Shown here: positions 8,354-52,312 of the stretch, one piece after another
How positions within the stretch are numbered: position 1 is the first letter of the stretch
Layout: every line of letters starts with the position of its first letter
Source: Parcubacteria group bacterium ADurb.Bin159
GTDB lineage: Bacteria; Patescibacteriota; Patescibacteriia; UBA2591; MWDC01
Direction: 5' to 3'
Assembly (NCBI GenBank): GCA_002070355.1
Contig: MWDC01000002.1
Location: 8,814-72,813 of the forward strand
DNA: 64,000 bases
Program-made: the position numbers and the translations under genes
Notes under the pieces: model-generated
Databases searched by the model: none
Seen by the model: the letters and a program-made list of their open reading frames with translations, nothing else
What the model was told of the DNA's origin: nothing

Positions 8354-8378
8354 AAAAAATATATCCACATAATTTAAT

Positions 8379-8454: not shown

Positions 8455-9441
8455 ATGAAAAAAGAAAACATTTGGTTAATCGTTTCTATTGTGTTGTTTA
8501 TTGGTTTAGTTGCTTCTATGTTTACTGGTGGTTTTGGTATAAAAATTAGCGGCAGTGGCGATTCTCCAGTAGAAGTAGCCGACAAGGCGGTAAAATTTAT
8601 TAATGATTACGGTTTAGGAGGAGGAGCAACTGCTTCAGTTGTGCCGGGTTCTTCAGAGTATTTAAAAAGCGACCTTTATAAATTTGGTTTAAATATAGGT
8701 GGGCAAGAATATACTTCTTATGTTTCTCGAGACGGCAAATTACTTTTTCCTAGTGTCATTGATATGGGAGAAATGTCCAAGTCCTCGCCGGAAGCAACAG
8801 CCGAAAATGAATCAGTAGAAATACCTCAGACAGAAAAGCCGGAGGTGAGATTATTTGTGATGGCTTATTGCCCTTATGGCAATCAAGCAGAAGCAGCGAT
8901 GATACCTGCGGCTAATCTCCTGAAAGACAAAGCTGATATTAGTTTAAATAGTGTTATTTATTCTGATTACGCTACAAATATGGGAGGAGAAGCCAAAGAT
9001 TGGTGTTTAGATGAAGAGCAAAAATATTGTTCTATGCATGGGATTAATGAATTAAATGAAGATATTAGAGAATTGTGTGTGGCTAAATACGAGCCGGAAA
9101 AACTTTGGGATTTTGTAGGGAAAATAAATGACGAAACAACTACTCAAGATGTGGAAACTAAATGGGAAGATATTGCCAAAGAAATGAAAATAGATGTTAA
9201 TAAAATAAAAGATTGTCAAAAAAATGAAGCGGAAAGTTTATTAGACGAACAAGTGGCTTTAAATGAAGAATATGGCATTTCCGGTTCACCTACTCTTTTA
9301 ATCAACGGAGTGAGATATCAAGGAGACCGCACTGCTGAGGCATATAAAACGGCCATTTGTCAGGCTTTTACAGAAATGCCGGAAGAATGCAAAACAACAT
9401 TAGACGAAGGAACAGTTGCTGCTCAAGGGACTTGTAACTAA
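8455..9441 (+). CDS. membrane-anchored thioredoxin-fold (DsbA-like) protein with a variant CPYG active-site motif
   Basis: An N-terminal transmembrane helix, FVMAYCPYGNQ, and GISGSPTLLINGVRYQG (thioredoxin/DsbA C-terminal signature). The second active-site Cys is replaced by Gly. Confidence 0.55.
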   Translation: MKKENIWLIVSIVLFIGLVASMFTGGFGIKISGSGDSPVEVADKAVKFINDYGLGGGATASVVPGSSEYLKSDLYKFGLNIGGQEYTSYVSRDGKLLFPSVIDMGEMSKSSPEATAENESVEIPQTEKPEVRLFVMAYCPYGNQAEAAMIPAANLLKDKADISLNSVIYSDYATNMGGEAKDWCLDEEQKYCSMHGINELNEDIRELCVAKYEPEKLWDFVGKINDETTTQDVETKWEDIAKEMKIDVNKIKDCQKNEAESLLDEQVALNEEYGISGSPTLLINGVRYQGDRTAEAYKTAICQAFTEMPEECKTTLDEGTVAAQGTCN

Positions 9442-12496: not shown

Positions 12497-13783
12497 ATGT
12501 CCAACAAACAATGGACCAAAATTATTATAGTTTTAGTTATAGTCATTTTTGCCATACTTGTAGATATTCCTCGGCTTCCTTCCTGGGTGCCGGGTTATAA
12601 ATGGTTTAGCGACTTGAAGGTGCATTTAGGCCTTGATTTGCAAGGGGGGATACATCTTATTTACGAAACAGACACAACTAACATTCCGGAAGAAGATAAA
12701 GAATATGCTGTGGAAGGAGCGCGCGACGTTATTGAAAAGCGGGTAAATGTTTTTGGTGTTGGTGAACCCCAAATTCAAACGGCTAAAACTGGTTCAGAAT
12801 GGCGGATTATTGTGGAATTGCCGGGAATTAGCGACGTAGGAGAAGCGTTAGAAATAATTGGCCAGACACCCACTTTAGAGTTTAGGGAACCCGGAGATTT
12901 ATCATCTCTTACTGAGGAGCAAATTTCTTCGATTTCTTCTTGGGTTTATACTGGTTTATCGGGACAGCAGCTTAAAATGGCGCGTTTGTCTTTTGATCAG
13001 CAAAACAGACCGCAAGTGTCTTTAGAATTTAATGAAGAAGGGACAAAATTGTTTAAAGAAATAACCGAAAGGAACATTGGTAAACCTGTGGCTATATTTT
13101 TAGATGGCGCTCCTTTAAGTATTCCCACCGTTCAAGAGGCCATTCCTTCCGGGCAAGCGGTAATTACCGGAGATTTTTCTATAACCGAAGCCAAAGAATT
13201 AGCCGAACGTTTAGCTGCTGGCGCTTTGCCTGTACCTATTAAATTAATTTCGCAACAACATATTGGCCCGACATTGGGGAAAATTTCTTTAGAACAAAGT
13301 TTTTTCGCCGGCTTGTTGGGTTTAATTTTGGTTATGGTCTTTATGATTTATTTTTATAAAGGCAAAGGGGTGTGCGCTTCTTTGGCGTTAATTATTTATT
13401 GCTTAATAAATTTGGCAATTTTTAAATTAATCCCCGTTACTTTAACTTTAGCCGGTATTGCCGGATTTATTCTTTCCATAGGTATGGCTGTTGACGCTAA
13501 TGTTTTAATTTTTGAACAGATTAAAGACGAAGAAGAACAAGGGAAAAATTCGTTAGTTGCTCTTAATTCAGGGTTTCGCCACGCTTGGACAGCTATTCGC
13601 GACAGCAATATCACTACATTAATAGTGTGTTTTATTCTTTATGAATTCGGTACCGGATTAATTAGGGGATTTGGCTTGACCTTAGGTATTGGCGTAGCTG
13701 TTAGTATGTTCTCTGCACTTACTATAACAAGAATAATATTAGAGATATTTTATCAACCAAAAATTAAAACAGTGAAAGTATAA
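12497..13783 (+). CDS. secD: protein translocase subunit SecD
   Basis: LGLDLQGGIHLIYE is the SecD periplasmic P1 head motif. There are six C-terminal TM helices, and it lies immediately upstream of secF. Confidence 0.9.
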   Translation: MSNKQWTKIIIVLVIVIFAILVDIPRLPSWVPGYKWFSDLKVHLGLDLQGGIHLIYETDTTNIPEEDKEYAVEGARDVIEKRVNVFGVGEPQIQTAKTGSEWRIIVELPGISDVGEALEIIGQTPTLEFREPGDLSSLTEEQISSISSWVYTGLSGQQLKMARLSFDQQNRPQVSLEFNEEGTKLFKEITERNIGKPVAIFLDGAPLSIPTVQEAIPSGQAVITGDFSITEAKELAERLAAGALPVPIKLISQQHIGPTLGKISLEQSFFAGLLGLILVMVFMIYFYKGKGVCASLALIIYCLINLAIFKLIPVTLTLAGIAGFILSIGMAVDANVLIFEQIKDEEEQGKNSLVALNSGFRHAWTAIRDSNITTLIVCFILYEFGTGLIRGFGLTLGIGVAVSMFSALTITRIILEIFYQPKIKTVKV

Positions 13784-13785
13784 TT

Positions 13786-14727
13786 TTGATATATTTTATG
13801 TTTTCCATTGTTTCAAAAAGAAAAATTTTTTTTAGCATATCAGCGGTTGTTTGTTTAGCGGCAATTTTATGTTTGATTATTTGCCCCCTGAAATTAGGTA
13901 TTGATTTTACTGGTGGAGCAATGATTGAATTGTCCTTTGAAGAAAGGCCGTCAATAGAACAAATTAAAGAAAAGCTCAATTCTTTTAATTTAGGAGAAGT
14001 AAAAATCAGTCAAACAGGAGAGAATGGTTATCTTTTAAGATTTAAAGAAATTGACGAGCAAACTCACCAAGAAATTCTTAAAGTATTAACCGGCGCTAAA
14101 GAGGAAAGATATGAAATTGTTGGGCCGACTATTGGGCAAGAAGTAAAAACAAAAGCGAAAACAGCGATTATTTTGTCAGTTATTCTTATATTTGTTTATA
14201 TTGTTTGGGCTTTTCGTAAAATATCACGTTTTTTTGGCAGGCAGGAATCATGGCGTTATGGAGCAGGAGCAATTTTAGCCTTAGTTCATGATATGTTGAT
14301 TATGTGTGGATTTTTTGCTTTGCTCGGTTTTTTGAAGGGAACAGAAGTGGACACGCTTTTTATTAGCGCCTTATTAACGATTTTAGGATATTCAGTCAAT
14401 GATACTATTGTTATTTATGACCGCATTAGGGAAAACACCCTTCTCTACGGCAGAGATAATTTTGAAGAGGTGGTTAATCTTTCTTTAAACGAATCTTTAG
14501 TTCGTTCTTTAAATACTTCTTTAACTACTCTTTTAGTGGTTTTGACCATTGCTTTATTTACTGGTTCAAGTACTCAAATATTTGCTTTAGCTTTAGCTGT
14601 GGGTATTATATCCGGTACTTGGTCTACTATTGCCATTGCTACACCCTTTGTCCTTTTGGGCCACACCAAAAAGGGGACAGTCCCCAAAAGTCGACCTTCG
14701 CAAACCCGCATAAACATTGGCTTTTAG
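13786..14727 (+). CDS. secF: protein translocase subunit SecF
   Basis: LGIDFTGG motif with an RND-like TM region. The last ~15 codons (GTVPKSRPSQTRINIGF) run into repeat E. Confidence 0.9.
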   Translation: MIYFMFSIVSKRKIFFSISAVVCLAAILCLIICPLKLGIDFTGGAMIELSFEERPSIEQIKEKLNSFNLGEVKISQTGENGYLLRFKEIDEQTHQEILKVLTGAKEERYEIVGPTIGQEVKTKAKTAIILSVILIFVYIVWAFRKISRFFGRQESWRYGAGAILALVHDMLIMCGFFALLGFLKGTEVDTLFISALLTILGYSVNDTIVIYDRIRENTLLYGRDNFEEVVNLSLNESLVRSLNTSLTTLLVVLTIALFTGSSTQIFALALAVGIISGTWSTIAIATPFVLLGHTKKGTVPKSRPSQTRINIGF

Positions 14728-14918
14728 GACGAATTTTAAAAATTAGGGCTGTGAACCCTAAATTTGCAAAATTGCTTAAATTGGTCAAAAAATATAATTT
14801 TTATTTTAAATAAACAAAATTCTGAAAATTAGGGTTGTGAACCCTAATTTTGAAAAAATGCCTTTGAAACGCAGATGAATAAAGGCTTTTGGAGGGGCGG
14901 AAACGGGGGACTGTCCCC
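14673..14918 (+). repeat. modular intergenic repeat element, copy E (canonical long form)
   Basis: M1 (14673-14685); M3 variant aaacccgcataaacattggc (14702-14721); M4 tagggctgtgaaccctaa (14744-14761); promoter-like TTGCTT-N15-TATAAT (14772-14798); M4 (14830-14847); cgcagatgaataaaggc (14870-14886); M1 (14905-14918). It is co-linear with copy B. Confidence 0.85.
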
Positions 14919-14931
14919 AAAATAATAGAAT

Positions 14932-16527
14932 ATGATTCAAGCGATTATATTAGGCATTTTAGGACTTGTCTTTTTTTTCATTGGCGTTTTTGAATTGAAT
15001 TCTGTTGTCCAGAAAATCTTTAATTTTAGAATCAGACAATATCTTCAATCGGTTAATAAAAATCGATTTTTCGGCGCTATTTTTGGTTTTATTTTAACCG
15101 CTCTTCTTCAAAGCAGTTCAGTGGCAAGTGTTTTAATCATAGCTTTAGTCAACGCTGGACTTTTGAATTTTCTCGGGTCTTTACCTATTATTTTGGGTAT
15201 AGGAGTTGGTTCAACTATTGCTCCGGCTTTAGTCGCTTTTAAAATAACTAATATTGCCCCCATTTTTATTATTATTGGGGGTTTTTTATATCTTTTTTCA
15301 AAAAAAGATAAATTGCAATCTTTGGGACAGGCATTTTTATACTTTGGTTTATTATTTTTTGGGTTAGATTTAATTGGCGAAGCAGCGGAGCCCATAAAAA
15401 ATAGCGCTTTTTTTATGAGATTGGCTCAGGAAGGAATGTCTCCATTTTTTGGTTTGCTGTTTGGCATAATTTTTACCGCTATTATTCAAAGCAGCGTAGT
15501 GCCTATTGGGCTTTTAGTTATTTTAGCCGGAGAAGGTTTAGTCGGTTTAAACCTTGCTCTACCTATTATTTTAGGAGCGAATATTGGCACTACATTTAGC
15601 GCAATTTTAGTTAGTTTGAAAGAAAATTTAGCCGCTAAAAGAACAGCTTTATTTTATTTAATTTTTAAAATTATTGGTGTAATTATTATTTTTCCTTTTT
15701 TAGGACTATTCACTTCCTTTTTAGAAAAAATTTTTCCTTCTTTACCGTTTCAAATTATTGGCGCTCATTTCTTTTTCAATTTGTTTTTATTTTTAATTTT
15801 TATTTTTTTGACAGAAGCAATAGGAAAGATTATAAAACAAATTTTACCCGGGGAAGAGAAAGTATTGCCCCTTTTTCCTATTTATTTAGATAAGCGTTTA
15901 ACCGAATATCCATCTCAATCTTTTTCTGTTGTTTTAGAAGAATTGTCTCGGGCGGTTATTTTAATAAAAGAAATGTTTGAAGAAACGGAAAATCTTTTTA
16001 TAAATTTTAAACCTTCTGATTTTAAAAGAATAGATTATATTGAAGTAGTTATAGATGAATTACAAGACGAGATTTTGGATTTTTTGAATTGCCTTAAAAA
16101 AGAAAAATTAACGCAAAAAGACGTAAAAAAAGCAATCTGTTTAGCGACCATTACTGATGAGTTAGAAAGAATAGGTGATAGGATATTAAATGTGGCAAAA
16201 TTGGCTCGGCTTAAAGCAAAAAAAGAAGTTGTTTTTTCTCAAGAAGCAGAGGAAGAAATTAAGGGCATTTTATCTATGCTTAAAAATAGTTTTTCTATTT
16301 TAGAAAAAGCAATTTCTTCTTTAAGTCCTAATTATCTTAATGACATATTAGCGCAAAAAAAAGATTTTGAAGAAAAAATATCTTCAGCTTTGAATAACCA
16401 TCTTGAAAGATTTTATGAGAGAAAATGCCCAATGGCTGATAGCACTATTTTTAATAATATTCTTATTAATTTTCGGGAAATTTATAATCATTGTTTGAAA
16501 ATAATTCAAACACTTACGATGATATAG
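14932..16527 (+). CDS. Na+/phosphate cotransporter family protein (NptA-like) with a C-terminal PhoU-like domain
   Basis: Duplicated QSSS motifs (TALLQSSSVASVL / AIIQSSVVPIG) within a polytopic N-terminal half, and an alpha-helical PhoU-like C-terminus. Confidence 0.8.
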   Translation: MIQAIILGILGLVFFFIGVFELNSVVQKIFNFRIRQYLQSVNKNRFFGAIFGFILTALLQSSSVASVLIIALVNAGLLNFLGSLPIILGIGVGSTIAPALVAFKITNIAPIFIIIGGFLYLFSKKDKLQSLGQAFLYFGLLFFGLDLIGEAAEPIKNSAFFMRLAQEGMSPFFGLLFGIIFTAIIQSSVVPIGLLVILAGEGLVGLNLALPIILGANIGTTFSAILVSLKENLAAKRTALFYLIFKIIGVIIIFPFLGLFTSFLEKIFPSLPFQIIGAHFFFNLFLFLIFIFLTEAIGKIIKQILPGEEKVLPLFPIYLDKRLTEYPSQSFSVVLEELSRAVILIKEMFEETENLFINFKPSDFKRIDYIEVVIDELQDEILDFLNCLKKEKLTQKDVKKAICLATITDELERIGDRILNVAKLARLKAKKEVVFSQEAEEEIKGILSMLKNSFSILEKAISSLSPNYLNDILAQKKDFEEKISSALNNHLERFYERKCPMADSTIFNNILINFREIYNHCLKIIQTLTMI

Positions 16528-16561
16528 TAAAATTATTTTAATAAGAATTTTTAGATAATTT

Positions 16562-16585
16562 TCTGGTTTTAAGCCAGATTTTTTG
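16562..16585 (+). terminator. weak intrinsic terminator (tctgg-ttttaag-ccaga + T7)
   Basis: A 5-bp stem at 16562-16578 followed by tttttt, 35 nt after the transporter stop. Confidence 0.35.
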
Positions 16586-16594
16586 TTTTAAAAG

Positions 16595-16679
16595 TTATCC
16601 ACAGAAAGGACTTGTTTTGTGGTAAAAAATGGTGTATAATGTAAGCGCTGTGGAAATCTGTGGATAAAAGTGGGGATAA
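16595..16679. promoter_or_regulatory. DnaA-box cluster upstream of mraZ: TTATCCACA (16595-16603) plus three inverted boxes phased about 10-11 bp apart (tgtggaaat 16649-16657, tgtggataa 16659-16667, tggggataa 16671-16679)
   Basis: One box is a perfect match and one is the exact reverse complement of the TTATCCACA consensus; the other two have 1-2 mismatches. An extended -10 box tgtgtataat (16631-16640) lies between them. Confidence 0.6.
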
Positions 16680-16740
16680 CTCAAAATTTTAGAGGATAAG
16701 TTCCAAAAAACTATTATTTCTGCTTTTTTAACTTTTTATT

Positions 16741-17172
16741 ATGTTTATTGGTGAATATCATTATTTAATAGACGATAAAAATAGATTATCTATTCCAGTA
16801 AAATTTCGAAGCTACTTTAATAAAGGAGCAGTAATTACTCGAGGAATAGATAATTGTTTGACTCTTTATCCATTAGTTGAGTGGAAAAAAGTAGCAGAAA
16901 AATTAGTTAATCTTCCCACAAATCAAGCTAAACCACGAGCTTTTGCCCGTTTAATGTTAGCCGGAGCCATGGATGTTAAATTAGATTCTTTGGGCAGAAT
17001 TGTTTTGCCTGATTATTTAAAAAAATACGCTGGGTTAAAAAAAGAAATAGTCATTAGCGGCCTTTATAATAAGTTAGAAATTTGGGATGAGGTAAAATGG
17101 GAAGAAGTAAAAGCAAAAGCCGAATCTTCCAGCATTGACATTGCCGAAACATTAGGAGAAATGGGAGTATGA
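16741..17172 (+). CDS. mraZ: division/cell-wall cluster transcriptional regulator MraZ
   Basis: 143 aa. MFIGEYHYLIDDKNRLSIPVKFR and a second DXXXR-type repeat; it overlaps rsmH by 4 nt. Confidence 0.9.
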   Translation: MFIGEYHYLIDDKNRLSIPVKFRSYFNKGAVITRGIDNCLTLYPLVEWKKVAEKLVNLPTNQAKPRAFARLMLAGAMDVKLDSLGRIVLPDYLKKYAGLKKEIVISGLYNKLEIWDEVKWEEVKAKAESSSIDIAETLGEMGV

Positions 17173-18041
17173 AACACCTTCCTGTTCTTTTAAAAGAAAC
17201 AATACAATTTTTAGCTCCTTGTCCTAACGAGAATTTTATTGACGCGACTATCGGTGGAGGGGGGCATAGCTTGGCTATTTTAGAAAAAACAAAGTCAAAA
17301 GGAAAAGTTTTAGGTATTGATTGGTCATTAGAAGCTATTACTGAACTTGAACAGCAAAAAAAGAATAAACTGGATATTTCATCAAGATTGATTCTGGTGG
17401 CAGACAATTTTATAAATATTGCCGCTATTGCCCATAAATTAAATTTTAAACCTATCCATGGCATTTTATTTGATTTAGGATTGTCAACTGATATTTTAGA
17501 AAGCAAACGAGGATTTTCTTTTAAAGACAATGAGCCATTAGATATGCGCTATAATCCGAAGATGACAGATTTAACTGCTAGCCACATTTTGAATACAGCG
17601 AGCGAAAAAGAAATTTATTATATTTTAAAAAATTTTGGCGAAGAAAAATATTCTTACAAGATTGCTAAAACCATCATCTTCCTGCGCCAAAAAGAACCTT
17701 TTACCACCACCAAACAATTAAAAATAGCCGTAATTAAAGCCACTAAGCAAAATTTTAATATTAAAATTTTAGCCAGAGTTTTCCAGGCATTAAGAATCGT
17801 GGTAAATAAAGAATTGGAAAATTTAGAAAAAGCATTAGATGATTCTTTCAATATTTTGGCGGAAAACGGTAGAATAGTGGTTATTAGCTATCATTCTTTA
17901 GAAGATAGAATTGTTAAAAATAAATTTAAACAGGCAAAAAATTTTAAGATATTAACCAAAAAACCGATTATACCGAAAGAAGAAGAAATAAAAAATAATC
18001 CTCGTTCCCGCAGCGCTAAACTTCGAGCTATTAAAAAATGA
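17169..18041 (+). CDS. rsmH: 16S rRNA (cytosine1402-N4)-methyltransferase
   Basis: MKHLPVLLKE..DATIGGGGHS SAM-binding motif. It follows mraZ. Confidence 0.9.
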   Translation: MKHLPVLLKETIQFLAPCPNENFIDATIGGGGHSLAILEKTKSKGKVLGIDWSLEAITELEQQKKNKLDISSRLILVADNFINIAAIAHKLNFKPIHGILFDLGLSTDILESKRGFSFKDNEPLDMRYNPKMTDLTASHILNTASEKEIYYILKNFGEEKYSYKIAKTIIFLRQKEPFTTTKQLKIAVIKATKQNFNIKILARVFQALRIVVNKELENLEKALDDSFNILAENGRIVVISYHSLEDRIVKNKFKQAKNFKILTKKPIIPKEEEIKNNPRSRSAKLRAIKK

Positions 18042-49959: not shown

Positions 49960-49967
49960 GATAAAAG

Positions 49968-50034
49968 TTATCCACAATTTATCCACAGTTTATCCACTTC
50001 TTTGATTTGGATTTTTTTTATTTTAGTTTATAAT
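49968..50034 (+). promoter_or_regulatory. oriC-type DnaA-box array (three direct TTATCCACA boxes with 11-bp periodicity: 49968, 49979, 49990), an AT-rich segment, and a dnaA promoter (TTGGAT-N16-TATAAT, 50007-50034) ending 8 nt before the ATG
   Basis: ttatccacaat-ttatccacagt-ttatccact; the -10 box tataat is at 50029-50034. Confidence 0.8.
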
Positions 50035-50042
50035 AAACCAAT

Positions 50043-51434
50043 ATGACAGAAGAAAAAAATAATAAAATAGAAGAAATAAATAAAGAAGAACTTTGGCAAA
50101 GTGTTTTGGGTGAATTAGAAGTTTCTATTTCTCCGGCAAATTTCAAAACCTGGTTTTCTAATACTTTTATTTTACGATTTGAAAATAATGGAGAAACGGT
50201 TGTTATCGGTGTGCCCAATGTTTTTACTGAGCAATGGTTAAGTCAAAAATACCATAAAGCGATATTAGATGCCTTTCAAAACATAACCGATAATAAAATA
50301 AAAGAGATTGTTTATACTATTAAAGCCGCTCTTCCTCCTCAAGAAAGATTTTTGGATAATTTAATAAAAATAAAAGCAAATGATAATGAAGGAACTTTTA
50401 AAACAGATAAACACGGGCTTAATCCTCGTTATACTTTCGAAAATTTTATTGTGGGAAAGGGCAACGAATTAGCCCATGCCGCTGCTATAGCAGTAAGTAA
50501 ACAACCAGGGAAAAAATATAATCCGCTTTTTATTTACGGGGGAGTGGGATTAGGTAAAACTCATCTTCTTCAAGCGATAGGGCATCGTGTTCTAGCTAAA
50601 AATCCTAAAACTAAAGTTCGTTATGTTAATGCCGAGGTTTTTACAAATGAATTTATTGAAGGCATTAGAACTGGTCAAAATGATAATTTTAAAAATAAGT
50701 ATCGTCAACTTGATTTTCTTTTAGTTGATGATATTCAATTTATGGCAGGGAAAGAGAGGACAGAAGAAGAATTTTTTCACACTTTTGATTGGCTTCATCA
50801 AGGAGGCAAACAAATAGTTATTACTTCTGATAGGCCCCCGAAATCTTTACCTGCTCTAGAAAAGAGGATTATTTCCCGATTTGAATGGGGATTAATTTGC
50901 GATATTACTCCTCCTGATTTTGAAACACGTTTGGCTATTTTAAAAACAAAATCAAAAGAAAAGGGATATAAATTAGAAGATGATGTTTTAAATTATTTAG
51001 CTAGTCATATACAAAATAATGTAAGAGAATTGGAAGGAGCGTTGAATAAAATTTTTGCTTGGCATGAATTAAAAGGAGGGCCGATTAATCTTGATGTAGT
51101 AGAAAAAATTATAAAAAGTTTGAATCAAATACAAAAAGGGTCTGTTAAAAGTGATAAAATAATTCAAGAAGTATCAGAGTTTTATAATTTGACGCCTCTT
51201 GATTTGAAAAGCGCTTCTCGAAAAAAAGAATTAGTGATGTCAAGGCAAATAGCTATGTATTTATTAAGAGAAGATTTAAACTTATCTTTTCCTGCTATTG
51301 GAAAAATTATAGGGGGGCGCGATCATTCTACCACTATGCATGGATGGGAAAAGGTAAAAAAAGAAGTTGAAGAAGGGGGAGAAACAAAACAAGATATTGA
51401 TTCTATCAGACAAAGAATTTATACTCATAAATAA
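50043..51434 (+). CDS. dnaA: chromosomal replication initiator DnaA
   Basis: AAA+ Walker A GGVGLGKTHLLQAIG, Walker B LLVDDIQF, and a C-terminal DnaA-box binding HTH (SRQIAMYLLRE..IGKIIGGRDHSTTMH). Confidence 0.95.
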   Translation: MTEEKNNKIEEINKEELWQSVLGELEVSISPANFKTWFSNTFILRFENNGETVVIGVPNVFTEQWLSQKYHKAILDAFQNITDNKIKEIVYTIKAALPPQERFLDNLIKIKANDNEGTFKTDKHGLNPRYTFENFIVGKGNELAHAAAIAVSKQPGKKYNPLFIYGGVGLGKTHLLQAIGHRVLAKNPKTKVRYVNAEVFTNEFIEGIRTGQNDNFKNKYRQLDFLLVDDIQFMAGKERTEEEFFHTFDWLHQGGKQIVITSDRPPKSLPALEKRIISRFEWGLICDITPPDFETRLAILKTKSKEKGYKLEDDVLNYLASHIQNNVRELEGALNKIFAWHELKGGPINLDVVEKIIKSLNQIQKGSVKSDKIIQEVSEFYNLTPLDLKSASRKKELVMSRQIAMYLLREDLNLSFPAIGKIIGGRDHSTTMHGWEKVKKEVEEGGETKQDIDSIRQRIYTHK

Positions 51435-51441
51435 ATTTAAA

Positions 51442-52293
51442 ATGACCAAAAATAAAGAAATTTTTGTTCGAAAAGCTACTGGAGGAAGAGATAAATTTAG
51501 ACCGGAAAAAATAAAAAATACTTGTTTGAGGATTGGGGTAAACCCTGAAACAGCCCAAAAAATCGTTGATAAGGTTTCTGAAGAGATATATAACGGTATT
51601 TCCACTAAAAAAATATTAGAAAAAACACGTTATTATTTAAAAGAAATTTCTCCGGTTTTATCTGATATTTATTCTTTAAAATCAGCTATGTTAGAACTTG
51701 GTCCAGATGGTTTTATTTTTGAAGAATATTGTCGCCGACTTTTAAATTATTACAATATTCCCGCTGTTTGCCCTAAAACTATTTTTGGGTTTTGTATTAG
51801 TCATGAAGTTGATATAATTTTTGAAAATGAAAAAAAATATACTTTTATTGAATGTAAATATCACAATAGGCAAGGAATATATTGCGGTTCAAAGGATATT
51901 CTTTATACTTGGGCAAGATTTTTAGATCTGCAAGATGGATTTAAATCACAAAAAAATTTTTATAATTTTACTTCAGTTTGGCTAATTACCAATACTAAAT
52001 TTTCTGACCATGCTAAACAATTTGGCTTATGTAAAAAGATGGGTCTTTTAGGATGGAATTGGCCAGAAAATGGAGGGTTGGCTTATTATATTAAAAAAGC
52101 AAAATTTTGGCCAATTACCATTTTGTCTAATATTGATAATAACATTCGTAAAATTTTATTTAAAGAAGGAATTATATTAATAAGCGATTTACTTAAACCA
52201 AATTTTACTTTAAAAAACGGTAAAATCAGCCAAAAGAAAATATCTATCATCCAAGAAGAAGCCCAAAAAGTAATGGATTATTTTAAAGAGTAA
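51442..52293 (+). CDS. ATP-cone domain fused to a PD-(D/E)xK (Mrr-like restriction endonuclease fold) domain
   Basis: N-terminus IFVRKATGGRDKFRPEKIKNTCLRIGV is ATP-cone-like, as in NrdR. The C-terminal half has ..FIFEEYCRRLL..HEVDIIFENEKKYTFIECKYH. (hD..ExK). The start is trimmed to MTKNKE to avoid overlapping dnaA. Confidence 0.55.
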   Translation: MTKNKEIFVRKATGGRDKFRPEKIKNTCLRIGVNPETAQKIVDKVSEEIYNGISTKKILEKTRYYLKEISPVLSDIYSLKSAMLELGPDGFIFEEYCRRLLNYYNIPAVCPKTIFGFCISHEVDIIFENEKKYTFIECKYHNRQGIYCGSKDILYTWARFLDLQDGFKSQKNFYNFTSVWLITNTKFSDHAKQFGLCKKMGLLGWNWPENGGLAYYIKKAKFWPITILSNIDNNIRKILFKEGIILISDLLKPNFTLKNGKISQKKISIIQEEAQKVMDYFKE

Positions 52294-52312
52294 AATAAAT
52301 ATATTTTTTATT

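What the first reader, a model, noticed from the sequence alone, without database searches (positions are those of the whole stretch)
16595..16679. A second DnaA-box cluster 33 kb from dnaA, directly upstream of mraZ
Four DnaA-type boxes fall within 85 bp. One is a perfect TTATCCACA and one is its exact reverse complement. Three of them are phased at about 10-11 bp. Together with an extended -10 box they sit in the 210-bp gap before mraZ. The cluster could be a DnaA-regulated promoter coupling replication initiation to cell division. It could also be a DnaA-titration site or a second half of a split origin. A further near-consensus box (atatccaca) lies at 8361-8369, next to a solo M1 palindrome.
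Basis: partly seen in the sequence, partly recalled or inferred. Interest (0 to 1): 0.6.

Follow-up and report, generated by a model that had tools for sequence, protein, structure and literature searches.

The report
MraZ operator flanked by DnaA boxes
The "DnaA-box cluster" in front of mraZ is mainly the usual MraZ self-repression site of the cell-division operon, but one box just upstream of the promoter looks like a genuine, conserved DnaA site that could link replication to division, as already reported in Bacillus subtilis.

Summary
TTATCCACA occurs perfectly at 16595-16603 (+) and 16659-16667 (-). There is a 1-mismatch copy at 16671-16679 and a 2-mismatch copy at 16649-16657. All lie in the 213-bp gap before mraZ. 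The window has only four perfect boxes (0.41 expected); the other two precede dnaA.

The three phased boxes are GTGG-N6-GTGG-N6-GTGG (16650-16673). This pattern is unique in the window and starts 9 nt after a TATAAT. That is the canonical MraZ operator of E. coli, B. subtilis and Mycoplasma. The adjacent MraZ keeps the DNA-contact residues K13, R15 and R86. In 76 of 81 Patescibacteria mraZ upstream regions the same array is present.

The fourth box, GTTATCCACAG at 16594-16604, is inverted relative to the array and sits 8 bp upstream of the -35. It is invariant in eight relatives whose spacers have diverged. It matches the boxes before dnaA. Isolated boxes of this type flank the array in 51 of 76 loci. 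I read it as a probable real DnaA site.

B. subtilis DnaA is reported to repress yllB(mraZ)-ftsL, so the coupling idea has precedent. GC skew gives no support for an origin at this site. This is a new member of known kinds, of moderate interest.

The parts
16562..16588 (+). Intrinsic terminator of the upstream Na/Pi-cotransporter/PhoU gene (14932-16527). It consists of the hairpin TCTGGTTTTAAGCCAGA followed by a T-run, and it bounds the mraZ regulatory region on the left.
   Evidence: Terminator scan (1 found against 0.1 expected). Pfam assignment of the upstream gene.
16594..16604 (+). Isolated consensus DnaA box GTTATCCACAG (9-mer at 16595-16603). It is inverted relative to the GTGG array and ends 8 bp upstream of the -35. 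It is the probable DnaA site.
   Evidence: GTTATCCACA is invariant in 9 of 9 sequences of alignment A2 while its flanks vary. The dnaA upstream region carries GTTATCCACAA and TTTATCCACAG, each one base from this 11-mer. Upstream boxes cluster near -61 from box 2 in both orientations in relatives.
16612..16640 (+). Predicted sigma-70-type Pmra promoter: -35 TTGTTT (16612-16617), a 17-bp spacer, and -10 TATAAT (16635-16640) preceded directly by TG. Two further MraZ-type cores lie in the spacer, GTGG at 16619-16622 and ATGG at 16629-16632.
   Evidence: Sequence. AAATGGT.TATA.T and GTGG 16619 are invariant in A2. The homologous GTGGtgTAAAATGG block is present across the phylum. The tool's promoter scan did not call this promoter because the -35 matches only 3 of 6 positions. 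The promoter and the TSS (about 16645-16648) are inferred.
16650..16673 (+). MraZ operator: three direct GTGG boxes at 16650, 16660 and 16670 with 6-nt spacers. It starts 9 nt after the -10, at about +3 to +27 of the inferred transcript.
   Evidence: Unique in the window, with 0.00 expected. The doublet pattern occurs only here. It matches the published MraZ sites GTGG[A/T]G x3 and GTG(G/T) with six spacer nucleotides. The core AaGTGGa.AAAAGTGGGGA.aa is conserved in 76 of 81 loci. E. coli Pmra has the same layout.
16659..16667 (-). Box 2 read as a perfect DnaA box (TTATCCACA on the - strand). It overlaps MraZ box 2, so it may be a dual-use site.
   Evidence: TGTGGATAAA is invariant in A2. In the wider phylum this box usually has A, not T, before GTGG (53 of 76 loci) and is a perfect DnaA box in only 8 of 76.
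16671..16679 (-). Box 3 read as a 1-mismatch DnaA box (TTATCCCCA). It is the tail of MraZ box 3, GTGGGGATAA.
   Evidence: GTGGGGA.AA is conserved across the phylum. The E. coli third MraZ repeat, GTGGGAATAA, is similar, which suggests this is an operator feature and not a DnaA site.
16691..16700 (+). Degenerate copy (AGAGGATAAG) of the downstream flanking box. In relatives this box is tGTGGATAAc, placed exactly 22 bp after the GTGG of box 3.
   Evidence: In relatives 12 loci carry a perfect box and 29 of 76 carry a box with at most one mismatch at this position. Nearly all sit at +32 from box 2.
16741..17172 (+). mraZ, the first gene of the mraZ-rsmH-ftsL-like-PBP-mur ligase cluster. It encodes the protein expected to bind the GTGG array.
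   Evidence: Pfam MraZ 2e-36. The sequence is 100% identical to MraZ of Parcubacteria group bacterium ADurb.Bin159. K13, R15 and R86 are invariant in A1. It aligns to the M. genitalium MraZ structures 9qlr and 9qlg at about 4e-27.
49967..49999 (+). Reference DnaA boxes of this genome: GTTATCCACAA, TTTATCCACAG and TTTATCCACTT at an 11-bp period, 45 bp upstream of dnaA.
   Evidence: The boxes are at the same place in a relative with 68% identical DnaA (L092). Most DnaA domain IV contact residues are kept.

Best explanation
The 213-bp gap is the regulatory region of the division/cell-wall (mra/dcw) operon promoter, and it carries two overlapping sets of sites.

(1) The MraZ operator (firm). It is an array of GTGG-type boxes at a 10-bp period. 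The cores are at 16650, 16660 and 16670, with further cores at 16619 and 16629 inside the promoter spacer. An MraZ oligomer inserts one subunit per box into successive major grooves. The array begins about 3 nt after the inferred start site, so binding there would repress mraZ-rsmH-ftsL-PBP transcription. This is autorepression.

(2) DnaA boxes (probable). The isolated, inverted consensus box GTTATCCACAG at 16594-16604 lies in the UP-element zone, at about -52 to -44. Box 2 is also a perfect DnaA box. Together they would give the replication initiator an input into the same promoter, so that division-gene expression responds to replication status, as reported for B. subtilis yllB(mraZ)-ftsL.

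What is shown: the sequences, their statistics, their conservation, and the integrity of both proteins' DNA-reading residues. What is inferred: the promoter and start site, binding by either protein, and the sign of any DnaA effect.
For: MraZ part:
- GTGG-N6-GTGG-N6-GTGG is unique in the window, with zero expected. The doublet occurs only here.
[quoted passage not shown] There are three or four boxes, and the TSS lies in box 1.
- E. coli Pmra reads TTGACA-17-TAAACT-7nt-GTGGG-N5-GTGGG-N5-GTGGG.
- MraZ K13, R15 and R86 are invariant.
- 76 of 81 Patescibacteria mraZ upstream regions carry the array.

DnaA part:
- Perfect boxes occur in the window only here and before dnaA.
- GTTATCCACA is invariant in 9 of 9 relatives with 64-85% MraZ identity, while the flanks vary.
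- Across 80 loci there are 46 perfect boxes in 20.5 kb of upstream sequence and 0 in 149 kb of mraZ plus downstream DNA.
- 51 of 76 loci have an isolated box with at most one mismatch in one of two fixed zones, about -61 and +32 from box 2.
- The isolated boxes read tGTGGATAAc. They differ from array boxes at -1 (T in 16 of 24 against 12 of 76, p = 5e-6) and at +5.
- Upstream boxes occur in both orientations, which does not fit a direct-repeat MraZ array.
- DnaA domain IV keeps R399, P423, D433, H434 and H439, with T435 changed to S. The roles of these residues are from my own knowledge of the 1J1V complex.
- Precedent: DnaA binds and represses the yllB(ftsL) promoter in B. subtilis.
Against: - No binding data exist for this uncultured organism.
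- Every DnaA-type box contains the MraZ core GTGG, so MraZ alone could in principle bind all of them. An MraZ octamer bound to a single box has been seen.
- The downstream flanking box sits at a strictly fixed 22 bp from box 3. The upstream box keeps its distance to the array (about -61) even though the -35 lies at -48 or -37. That looks like membership in one nucleoprotein complex, not an independent factor site.
- The downstream flanking site is degenerate in this window (AGAGGATAAG).
- The DnaA-likeness of box 3 is shared with E. coli's third MraZ repeat. At least that part needs no DnaA.
- The -35 is weak (TTGTTT), and the promoter scan did not call it.
Confidence: 0.68

Rival explanations
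1. MraZ only. Every GTGG-containing box in the gap is an MraZ site, including the inverted upstream box and the +22 site. On this reading the resemblance to the DnaA consensus reflects the lineage's extended MraZ box (GTGGATAA) together with A-rich spacers, and DnaA plays no part.
For: - All boxes contain GTGG.
- The flanking boxes keep fixed distances to the array: +22 from box 3 and about -61 from box 2, whatever the -35 position.
- The spacer As are explained by the AAAGTGG form of the box known from Mollicutes.
- E. coli's third repeat is GTGGGAATAA.
- MraZ can bind a single box.
- In E. coli, MraZ binds a site overlapping the mioC DnaA box.
Against: - The isolated boxes have a different flank signature from array boxes (T at -1, ATAA in 23-24 of 24, C at +5).
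- That signature resembles the boxes before dnaA in the same genome.
- Upstream boxes occur in either orientation. A ring of identically oriented subunits should not tolerate that.
- MraZ's base contacts cover only GTG(G/T), yet 10-11 bp are invariant.
Confidence: 0.22
2. DnaA only. All four boxes are DnaA boxes of a DnaA-controlled promoter, and the 10-bp phasing serves DnaA oligomerisation.
For: There are two perfect boxes and one 1-mismatch box within 85 bp. The dnaA upstream boxes are also phased, at 11 bp.
Against: - What is invariant across 76 loci at the phased positions is GTGG with a 10-bp period, not the 9-mer. Box 2 is a perfect DnaA box in only 8 of 76 loci, and box 1 is often GGTG or GTGT.
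- The pattern equals the experimentally defined MraZ operator, and it lies beside an intact mraZ.
Confidence: 0.05
3. DnaA-titration or DnaA-inactivation locus, like E. coli datA or the B. subtilis DnaA-box clusters. On this reading the site acts on replication timing and not on transcription.
For: It is a cluster of consensus boxes away from dnaA. Stable DnaA-binding intergenic clusters are known in B. subtilis.
Against: - There are only two consensus boxes.
- The boxes are locked to promoter and operator elements at base-pair precision, and they travel with mraZ whatever the upstream gene is. That gene is a Na/Pi transporter here, secF in L082, a permease in L090 and acetate kinase in L088.
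- This placement fits gene regulation.
Confidence: 0.04
4. A second or split replication origin.
For: A DnaA-box cluster lies in an AT-rich (26% GC) intergenic gap.
Against: - GC skew is positive and the cumulative skew rises monotonically across all 64 kb. There is no inflection at 16.6 kb.
- Nearly all genes on both sides are on the + strand.
- The gap is fully occupied by a terminator, a promoter, an operator and a leader, which leaves no room for an unwinding element.
- The site is 33 kb from dnaA, whereas known bipartite origins are separated only by dnaA.
Confidence: 0.01

Closest known systems
MraZ-binding repeats (MBRs) of the Pmra promoter in B. subtilis, E. coli and Mycoplasma
   Same: - Three direct repeats with a GTGG core at a 10-bp period.
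- They lie directly after the -10 and start site of the promoter in front of mraZ.
- The triple repeat is unique in the sequence available.
- The cognate MraZ carries both DXXXR motifs and K13, R15 and R86.
   Different: - Box flanks are lineage-specific (GTGGATAAAA and GTGGGGATAA).
- Extra xTGG cores sit inside the promoter spacer (16619, 16629).
- Box 2 doubles as a perfect DnaA consensus.
- Nothing has been tested experimentally in Patescibacteria.
DnaA as transcription factor at the B. subtilis yllB(mraZ)-ftsL promoter (Goranov et al. 2005, as cited in PMC2533591 and bioRxiv 10.1101/2022.02.09.479790)
   Same: DnaA boxes lie in the promoter region of the same operon. The proposed role is to lower or adjust division-gene expression according to replication status.
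   Different: - Here the evidence is purely comparative.
- Box positions are fixed relative to the MraZ array, at about -61 and +32.
- One box overlaps an MraZ box.
- The sign of regulation is unknown.
E. coli mioC promoter, where an MraZ site overlaps a DnaA box (Eraso et al. 2014, as cited in PMC4446571)
   Same: One stretch of DNA can be read by both MraZ and DnaA, because the DnaA box TGTGGATAA contains the MraZ core.
   Different: That case is at a gene next to oriC. This one is at the mraZ promoter itself.
dnaA autoregulatory boxes and oriC DnaA-box clusters
   Same: The 9-mer consensus is the same, and so are similar extended flanks, as at 49967-49999 in this genome.
   Different: There is no skew switch, no unwinding element and no adjacency to dnaA or dnaN. 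Only one box is isolated from the MraZ array.

Membership tests
MraZ operator (MBR) at Pmra | At least three direct repeats with a GTG(G/T) or TGGG core | tested here: met
   GTGG at 16650, 16660 and 16670
MraZ operator (MBR) at Pmra | 10-bp period (six spacer nucleotides for a 4-nt core) | tested here: met
   Exactly 10 bp twice. The pattern is unique in 64 kb, with 0.00 expected.
MraZ operator (MBR) at Pmra | Located at or just after the -10 and start site of the promoter in front of mraZ | tested here: met
   TATAAT at 16635-16640, 9 nt before box 1. The layout matches E. coli Pmra and M. genitalium. The promoter is predicted, not mapped.
MraZ operator (MBR) at Pmra | Adjacent mraZ encodes a protein with intact DNA-binding residues | tested here: met
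   D11xxxR15 and D82xxxR86 are present. K13, R15 and R86 are invariant in A1. The protein aligns to 9qlr.
MraZ operator (MBR) at Pmra | Conserved in relatives at the same place | tested here: met
   76 of 81 Patescibacteria loci. Invariant in A2.
MraZ operator (MBR) at Pmra | MraZ binds the site and represses transcription | not testable with these tools
   Requires EMSA, footprinting or a reporter assay
DnaA box / DnaA-regulated promoter | 9-mer matching TTATNCACA | tested here: met
   Perfect TTATCCACA at 16595-16603 and 16659-16667
DnaA box / DnaA-regulated promoter | More frequent than chance, and conserved beyond the surrounding sequence | tested here: met
   4 found against 0.41 expected. 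Ten invariant columns lie amid variable flanks. 46 perfect boxes in 20.5 kb upstream against 0 in 149 kb.
DnaA box / DnaA-regulated promoter | The same motif is used at dnaA or oriC in the same genome | tested here: met
   Three phased boxes at 49967-49999, conserved in L092
DnaA box / DnaA-regulated promoter | The organism's DnaA domain IV keeps the base-reading residues | tested here: met
   Alignment to 1J1V: R399, P423, D433, H434 and H439 are kept, and T435 is S. Residue roles are from my own knowledge.
DnaA box / DnaA-regulated promoter | The site is distinguishable from an MraZ box | tested here: inconclusive
   Flank signature and free orientation favour DnaA. Fixed spacing to the array favours one shared complex.
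DnaA box / DnaA-regulated promoter | DnaA binds the site and changes transcription | not testable with these tools
   Requires footprinting, DAP-seq or a reporter assay
Chromosomal origin (oriC) or half of a split origin | GC-skew sign change at the site | tested here: not met
   Skew is positive on both sides and the cumulative skew is monotonic
Chromosomal origin (oriC) or half of a split origin | Room for an AT-rich unwinding element next to the boxes | tested here: not met
   The gap is filled by a terminator, the box, the promoter, the operator and a 68-nt leader. A DnaA-trio search was not run.
Chromosomal origin (oriC) or half of a split origin | Adjacency to dnaA or dnaN | tested here: not met
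   dnaA is 33.4 kb away
datA / DnaA-box-cluster titration locus | Several (about four or more) high-affinity boxes acting independently of a promoter | tested here: not met
   There are two consensus boxes, both locked to promoter and operator elements

The most novel reading that the evidence does not exclude
In Patescibacteria the mra promoter may be a fixed-geometry composite. DnaA boxes at about -61 and +32 from MraZ box 2 are roughly six and three helical turns away, which puts them on the same face of the helix. In this sub-lineage a perfect DnaA box is also embedded in box 2. DnaA and MraZ would then assemble, or compete, on one nucleoprotein complex. That would be a hard-wired replication-to-division checkpoint in organisms with minimal regulatory repertoires, and possibly ancestral to the B. 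subtilis DnaA-ftsL link.
Probability: 0.3. Interest if true: 0.6.

Novelty: new member of a known kind. Interest (0 to 1): 0.4.

Why it matters
Patescibacteria (CPR) are uncultured, have tiny genomes, and almost nothing is known of their gene regulation. This locus gives two concrete, testable regulator-site pairs for them.

The first is an MraZ operator that follows the rules set by the recent cryo-EM work. The second is conserved DnaA boxes at the division-operon promoter.

If the DnaA input is real, the replication-status control of ftsL and division seen in B. subtilis is much more widespread, and probably older, than one phylum.

For genome annotation the practical lesson is that GTGG-N6 repeats before mraZ will be mis-scored as DnaA-box clusters or origin candidates by box-counting methods, because TGTGGATAA contains the MraZ core.

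Tried and rejected
- Rfam scan of 16000-17300 at E <= 1 gave no hits, so there is no sign of a known leader RNA.
- The consensus promoter scan did not call the mraZ promoter, because the -35 TTGTTT matches only 3 of 6 positions. Its three hits in the region are at chance level. The promoter assignment rests on conservation instead.
- The metagenome scan with DnaA was meant to give a phylum-specific box logo from dnaA upstream regions. It returned only one usable relative, L092 at 68% identity. The rest were distant or GC-rich.
- Eraso 2014 (PMC4010979) and Goranov 2005 (PMC1200305) are not held. Their results are cited second-hand through PMC4446571, PMC2533591 and the White et al. preprint.
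- Literature searches for DnaA box with mraZ, and for Patescibacteria with DnaA box, found no description of this arrangement. Several hits for 'mraZ' were the author name Mrazek.
- L088 (P0006, a 190-aa MraZ variant) did not align with the others upstream and was left out.
- The origin and titration readings were considered and rejected for the reasons given under the rival explanations.

Full report
**1. What is in the sequence.**

The window comes from a Patescibacteria (CPR) genome. Its MraZ is 100% identical to that of Parcubacteria group bacterium ADurb.Bin159. The region 16528-16740 is a 213-bp gap with 26% GC. On its left is a Na/Pi-cotransporter/PhoU gene. On its right is mraZ (16741-17172), followed by rsmH, an ftsL-like gene, a class-B PBP and a Mur ligase.

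- TTATCCACA at 16595-16603 (+).
- TGTGGATAA at 16659-16667.
- TGGGGATAA at 16671-16679.
- TGTGGAAAT at 16649-16657.

The consensus 9-mer occurs four times in 64 kb, against 0.41 expected, and no shuffle reaches four. The other two copies are at 49968 and 49979, with a one-mismatch third at 49990. These sit at an 11-bp period, 45 bp before dnaA.

**2. The three phased boxes are an MraZ operator.**

The common denominator of the three phased boxes is GTGG at 16650, 16660 and 16670. The pattern GTGG-N6-GTGG-N6-GTGG is unique in the window, with zero expected. Even the doublet occurs only here.

This is the published MraZ site:
- Three GTGG[A/T]G motifs with 4-nt spacers in B. subtilis. They are required for repression of the mra operon and are found only at Pmra.
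[quoted passage not shown] Each is read by K13, R15 and R86 of one MraZ subunit, and the start site lies in box 1.
- AAAGTG[T/G] repeats in Mollicutes.

E. coli K-12 Pmra, read here directly, has the same layout: TTGACA-17-TAAACT-7 nt-GTGGGaaattGTGGGgcaaaGTGGGaataa.

In the window a TATAAT (16635-16640) lies 9 nt before box 1. A TTGTTT lies 17 bp upstream of that TATAAT. Two more xTGG cores (16619, 16629) sit in the spacer.

The encoded MraZ has both DXXXR motifs. K13, R15 and R86 are invariant among 27 homologues. The protein aligns to the M. genitalium cryo-EM chains at about 4e-27.

**3. Comparative test.**

A scan of species-representative genomes returned 80 Patescibacteria mraZ loci.
- In 76 of 81 upstream regions, counting the window, the array is present. 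Its core is AaGTGGa.AAAAGTGGGGA.aa.
- The usual context is TTGAC ... GTGGtgTAAAATGG ... array.
- At the phased positions the invariant element is GTGG with a 10-bp period, not the DnaA 9-mer.
- Box 2 is a perfect DnaA box in only 8 of 76 loci, and it usually has A, not T, before GTGG.
- Box 3 (GTGGGGATAA) resembles E. coli's third repeat, GTGGGAATAA.

Much of the array's DnaA-likeness is thus a property of the operator itself: a shared GTGG core plus A-rich spacers.

**4. The isolated box behaves differently.**

GTTATCCACAG (16594-16604) is inverted relative to the array. It lies between the upstream gene's terminator (16562-16588) and the -35.

I aligned nine sequences: the window, five metagenomic relatives with 70-85% MraZ identity and three genome relatives with 64-66% identity. 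GTTATCCACA is invariant in all nine, while the sequence on both sides varies. TGTGGATAAA.GTGGGGA.AA is invariant too.

The box stays with the promoter although the upstream gene differs. It is a Na/Pi transporter here, secF in L082 and a permease in L090.

Across the phylum:
- Perfect boxes are strongly concentrated in front of mraZ. There are 46 in 20.5 kb of upstream sequence, in 34 of 80 loci.
- There are none in 149 kb of mraZ plus downstream DNA.
- Most of the 17 found further upstream still lie in long mraZ leaders.
- They fall in two hot spots outside the array: about -61 from box 2, in either orientation, and +32, which is exactly 22 bp after box 3.
- 51 of 76 loci have a box with at most one mismatch in at least one of these zones.

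The isolated boxes read tGTGGATAAc. A follows the core in 24 of 24, ATAA in 23-24 of 24, and T precedes it in 16 of 24. In array box 2, T precedes the core in only 12 of 76 (p = 5e-6).

The isolated box at 16594-16604 reads GTTATCCACAG. The three dnaA upstream boxes read GTTATCCACAA, TTTATCCACAG and TTTATCCACTT, so each of the first two differs from that 11-mer at one flank base. From my own memory, the 11-mer also matches the E. coli oriC R1 and R4 boxes.

The window's DnaA domain IV keeps the residues that contact the box in the 1J1V complex, apart from a conservative T435S change (residue roles from my own knowledge).

In this window the +32 site is degenerate: AGAGGATAAG at 16691-16700.

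**5. Mechanism.**

I conclude that the gap is a composite promoter region.

The firm part is MraZ autorepression, through a 10-bp-phased array that begins at about +3.

The probable part is a DnaA input. It would act through the box at about -52 to -44 and perhaps through box 2, which both proteins could read.

There is direct precedent. B. subtilis yllB(mraZ)-ftsL is reported to be bound and negatively regulated by DnaA on replication stress. In E. coli an MraZ site overlaps the mioC DnaA box.

Whether DnaA activates or represses here cannot be inferred from the sequence.

One point counts against an independent DnaA site: the flanking boxes keep fixed distances to the array.
- The downstream box is always 22 bp after box 3.
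- The upstream box stays near -61 even though the -35 lies at -48 or -47 in 27 loci and at -37 in 12.
- These distances are close to three and six helical turns.

This suggests either one shared complex or MraZ binding to all boxes. I give the MraZ-only rival 0.22.

**6. Origin and titration readings.**

GC skew is positive in nearly every 2-kb bin, and the cumulative curve rises almost monotonically, dipping slightly only at 23-25, 36-38 and 54-56 kb. There is no inflection at 16.6 kb. Almost all genes on both sides are on the + strand.

The gap has no free space for an unwinding element. Known split origins are separated by dnaA only, not by 33 kb.

A titration role cannot be excluded. It would rest on two consensus boxes that are locked to promoter elements.

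**7. Verdict.**

The cluster is mostly an ordinary MraZ operator that a box-counting eye reads as DnaA boxes. It also includes one well-conserved box, and possibly a second, dual-use one, that is probably a true DnaA site.

This is a new member of known kinds. The conserved fixed-geometry pairing of DnaA-type boxes with the MraZ array across Patescibacteria is, as far as my searches show, undescribed. It is the part worth following up.

Noticed in passing
It lies 9 bp upstream of a near-perfect promoter, TTGACA-17-TATAAT, for a thioredoxin-like gene (8455-9441). The box-to-(-35) geometry and orientation match the mraZ upstream box, so this may be another DnaA-controlled promoter.
   Followed up: partly
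window 49960-52300 and the whole window: dnaA has only an 83-bp upstream gap, holding three 11-bp-phased boxes. It is not followed by dnaN: the next ORF has ATP-cone and AF1548-like domains, and after that comes a T2SSE ATPase. GC skew and gene orientation do not switch at dnaA, so no skew-defined origin lies in this window.
   Followed up: partly
L013 1298-1343, L026 1302-1347, L040 1300-1345, L059 1298-1343, L066 1291-1336: About 200 bp upstream of mraZ in one sub-lineage there is a terminator-like hairpin. In L059 and L066 it is built from inverted DnaA-like boxes (GTGGATAAAC ... GTTTATCCA). All five loci carry CTGTGGATAG spanning the loop and have a T-run after the hairpin. Predicted folding energies are -10 to -16 kcal/mol.
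   Followed up: partly
L099 (E. coli K-12 89200-89700), positions 391-425: The third MraZ repeat of E. coli Pmra reads GTGGGAATAA. It is close to the Patescibacteria box 3, GTGGGGATAA, and scores as a 1-mismatch TTATNCACA. The last repeat may carry an extended motif conserved across phyla.
   Followed up: partly
L006 about 1035-1085 and L014 about 1136-1186: Between 290 and 470 bp upstream of mraZ, a perfect TTATCCACA is followed about 30 bp later by a conserved aaatCCACTTAT(G/A)CACA. The latter is a second box of TTATNCACA type. Some lineages therefore carry further DnaA-type boxes far upstream of the array.
   Followed up: no
window 12497-16527 compared with L082-L084: In relatives with 76% identical MraZ, secD-secF directly precede mraZ. 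In the window a Na/Pi-cotransporter/PhoU gene lies between secF and mraZ. The box-promoter-operator block is unchanged.
   Followed up: no
record titles of L002, L006, L011, L012, L019 and others: Many contigs with typical Patescibacteria mraZ loci are titled 'uncultured Gammaproteobacteria bacterium' or 'Candidatus Binatia' in the genome collection. These are probably placeholder or mis-assigned taxonomy.
   Followed up: no
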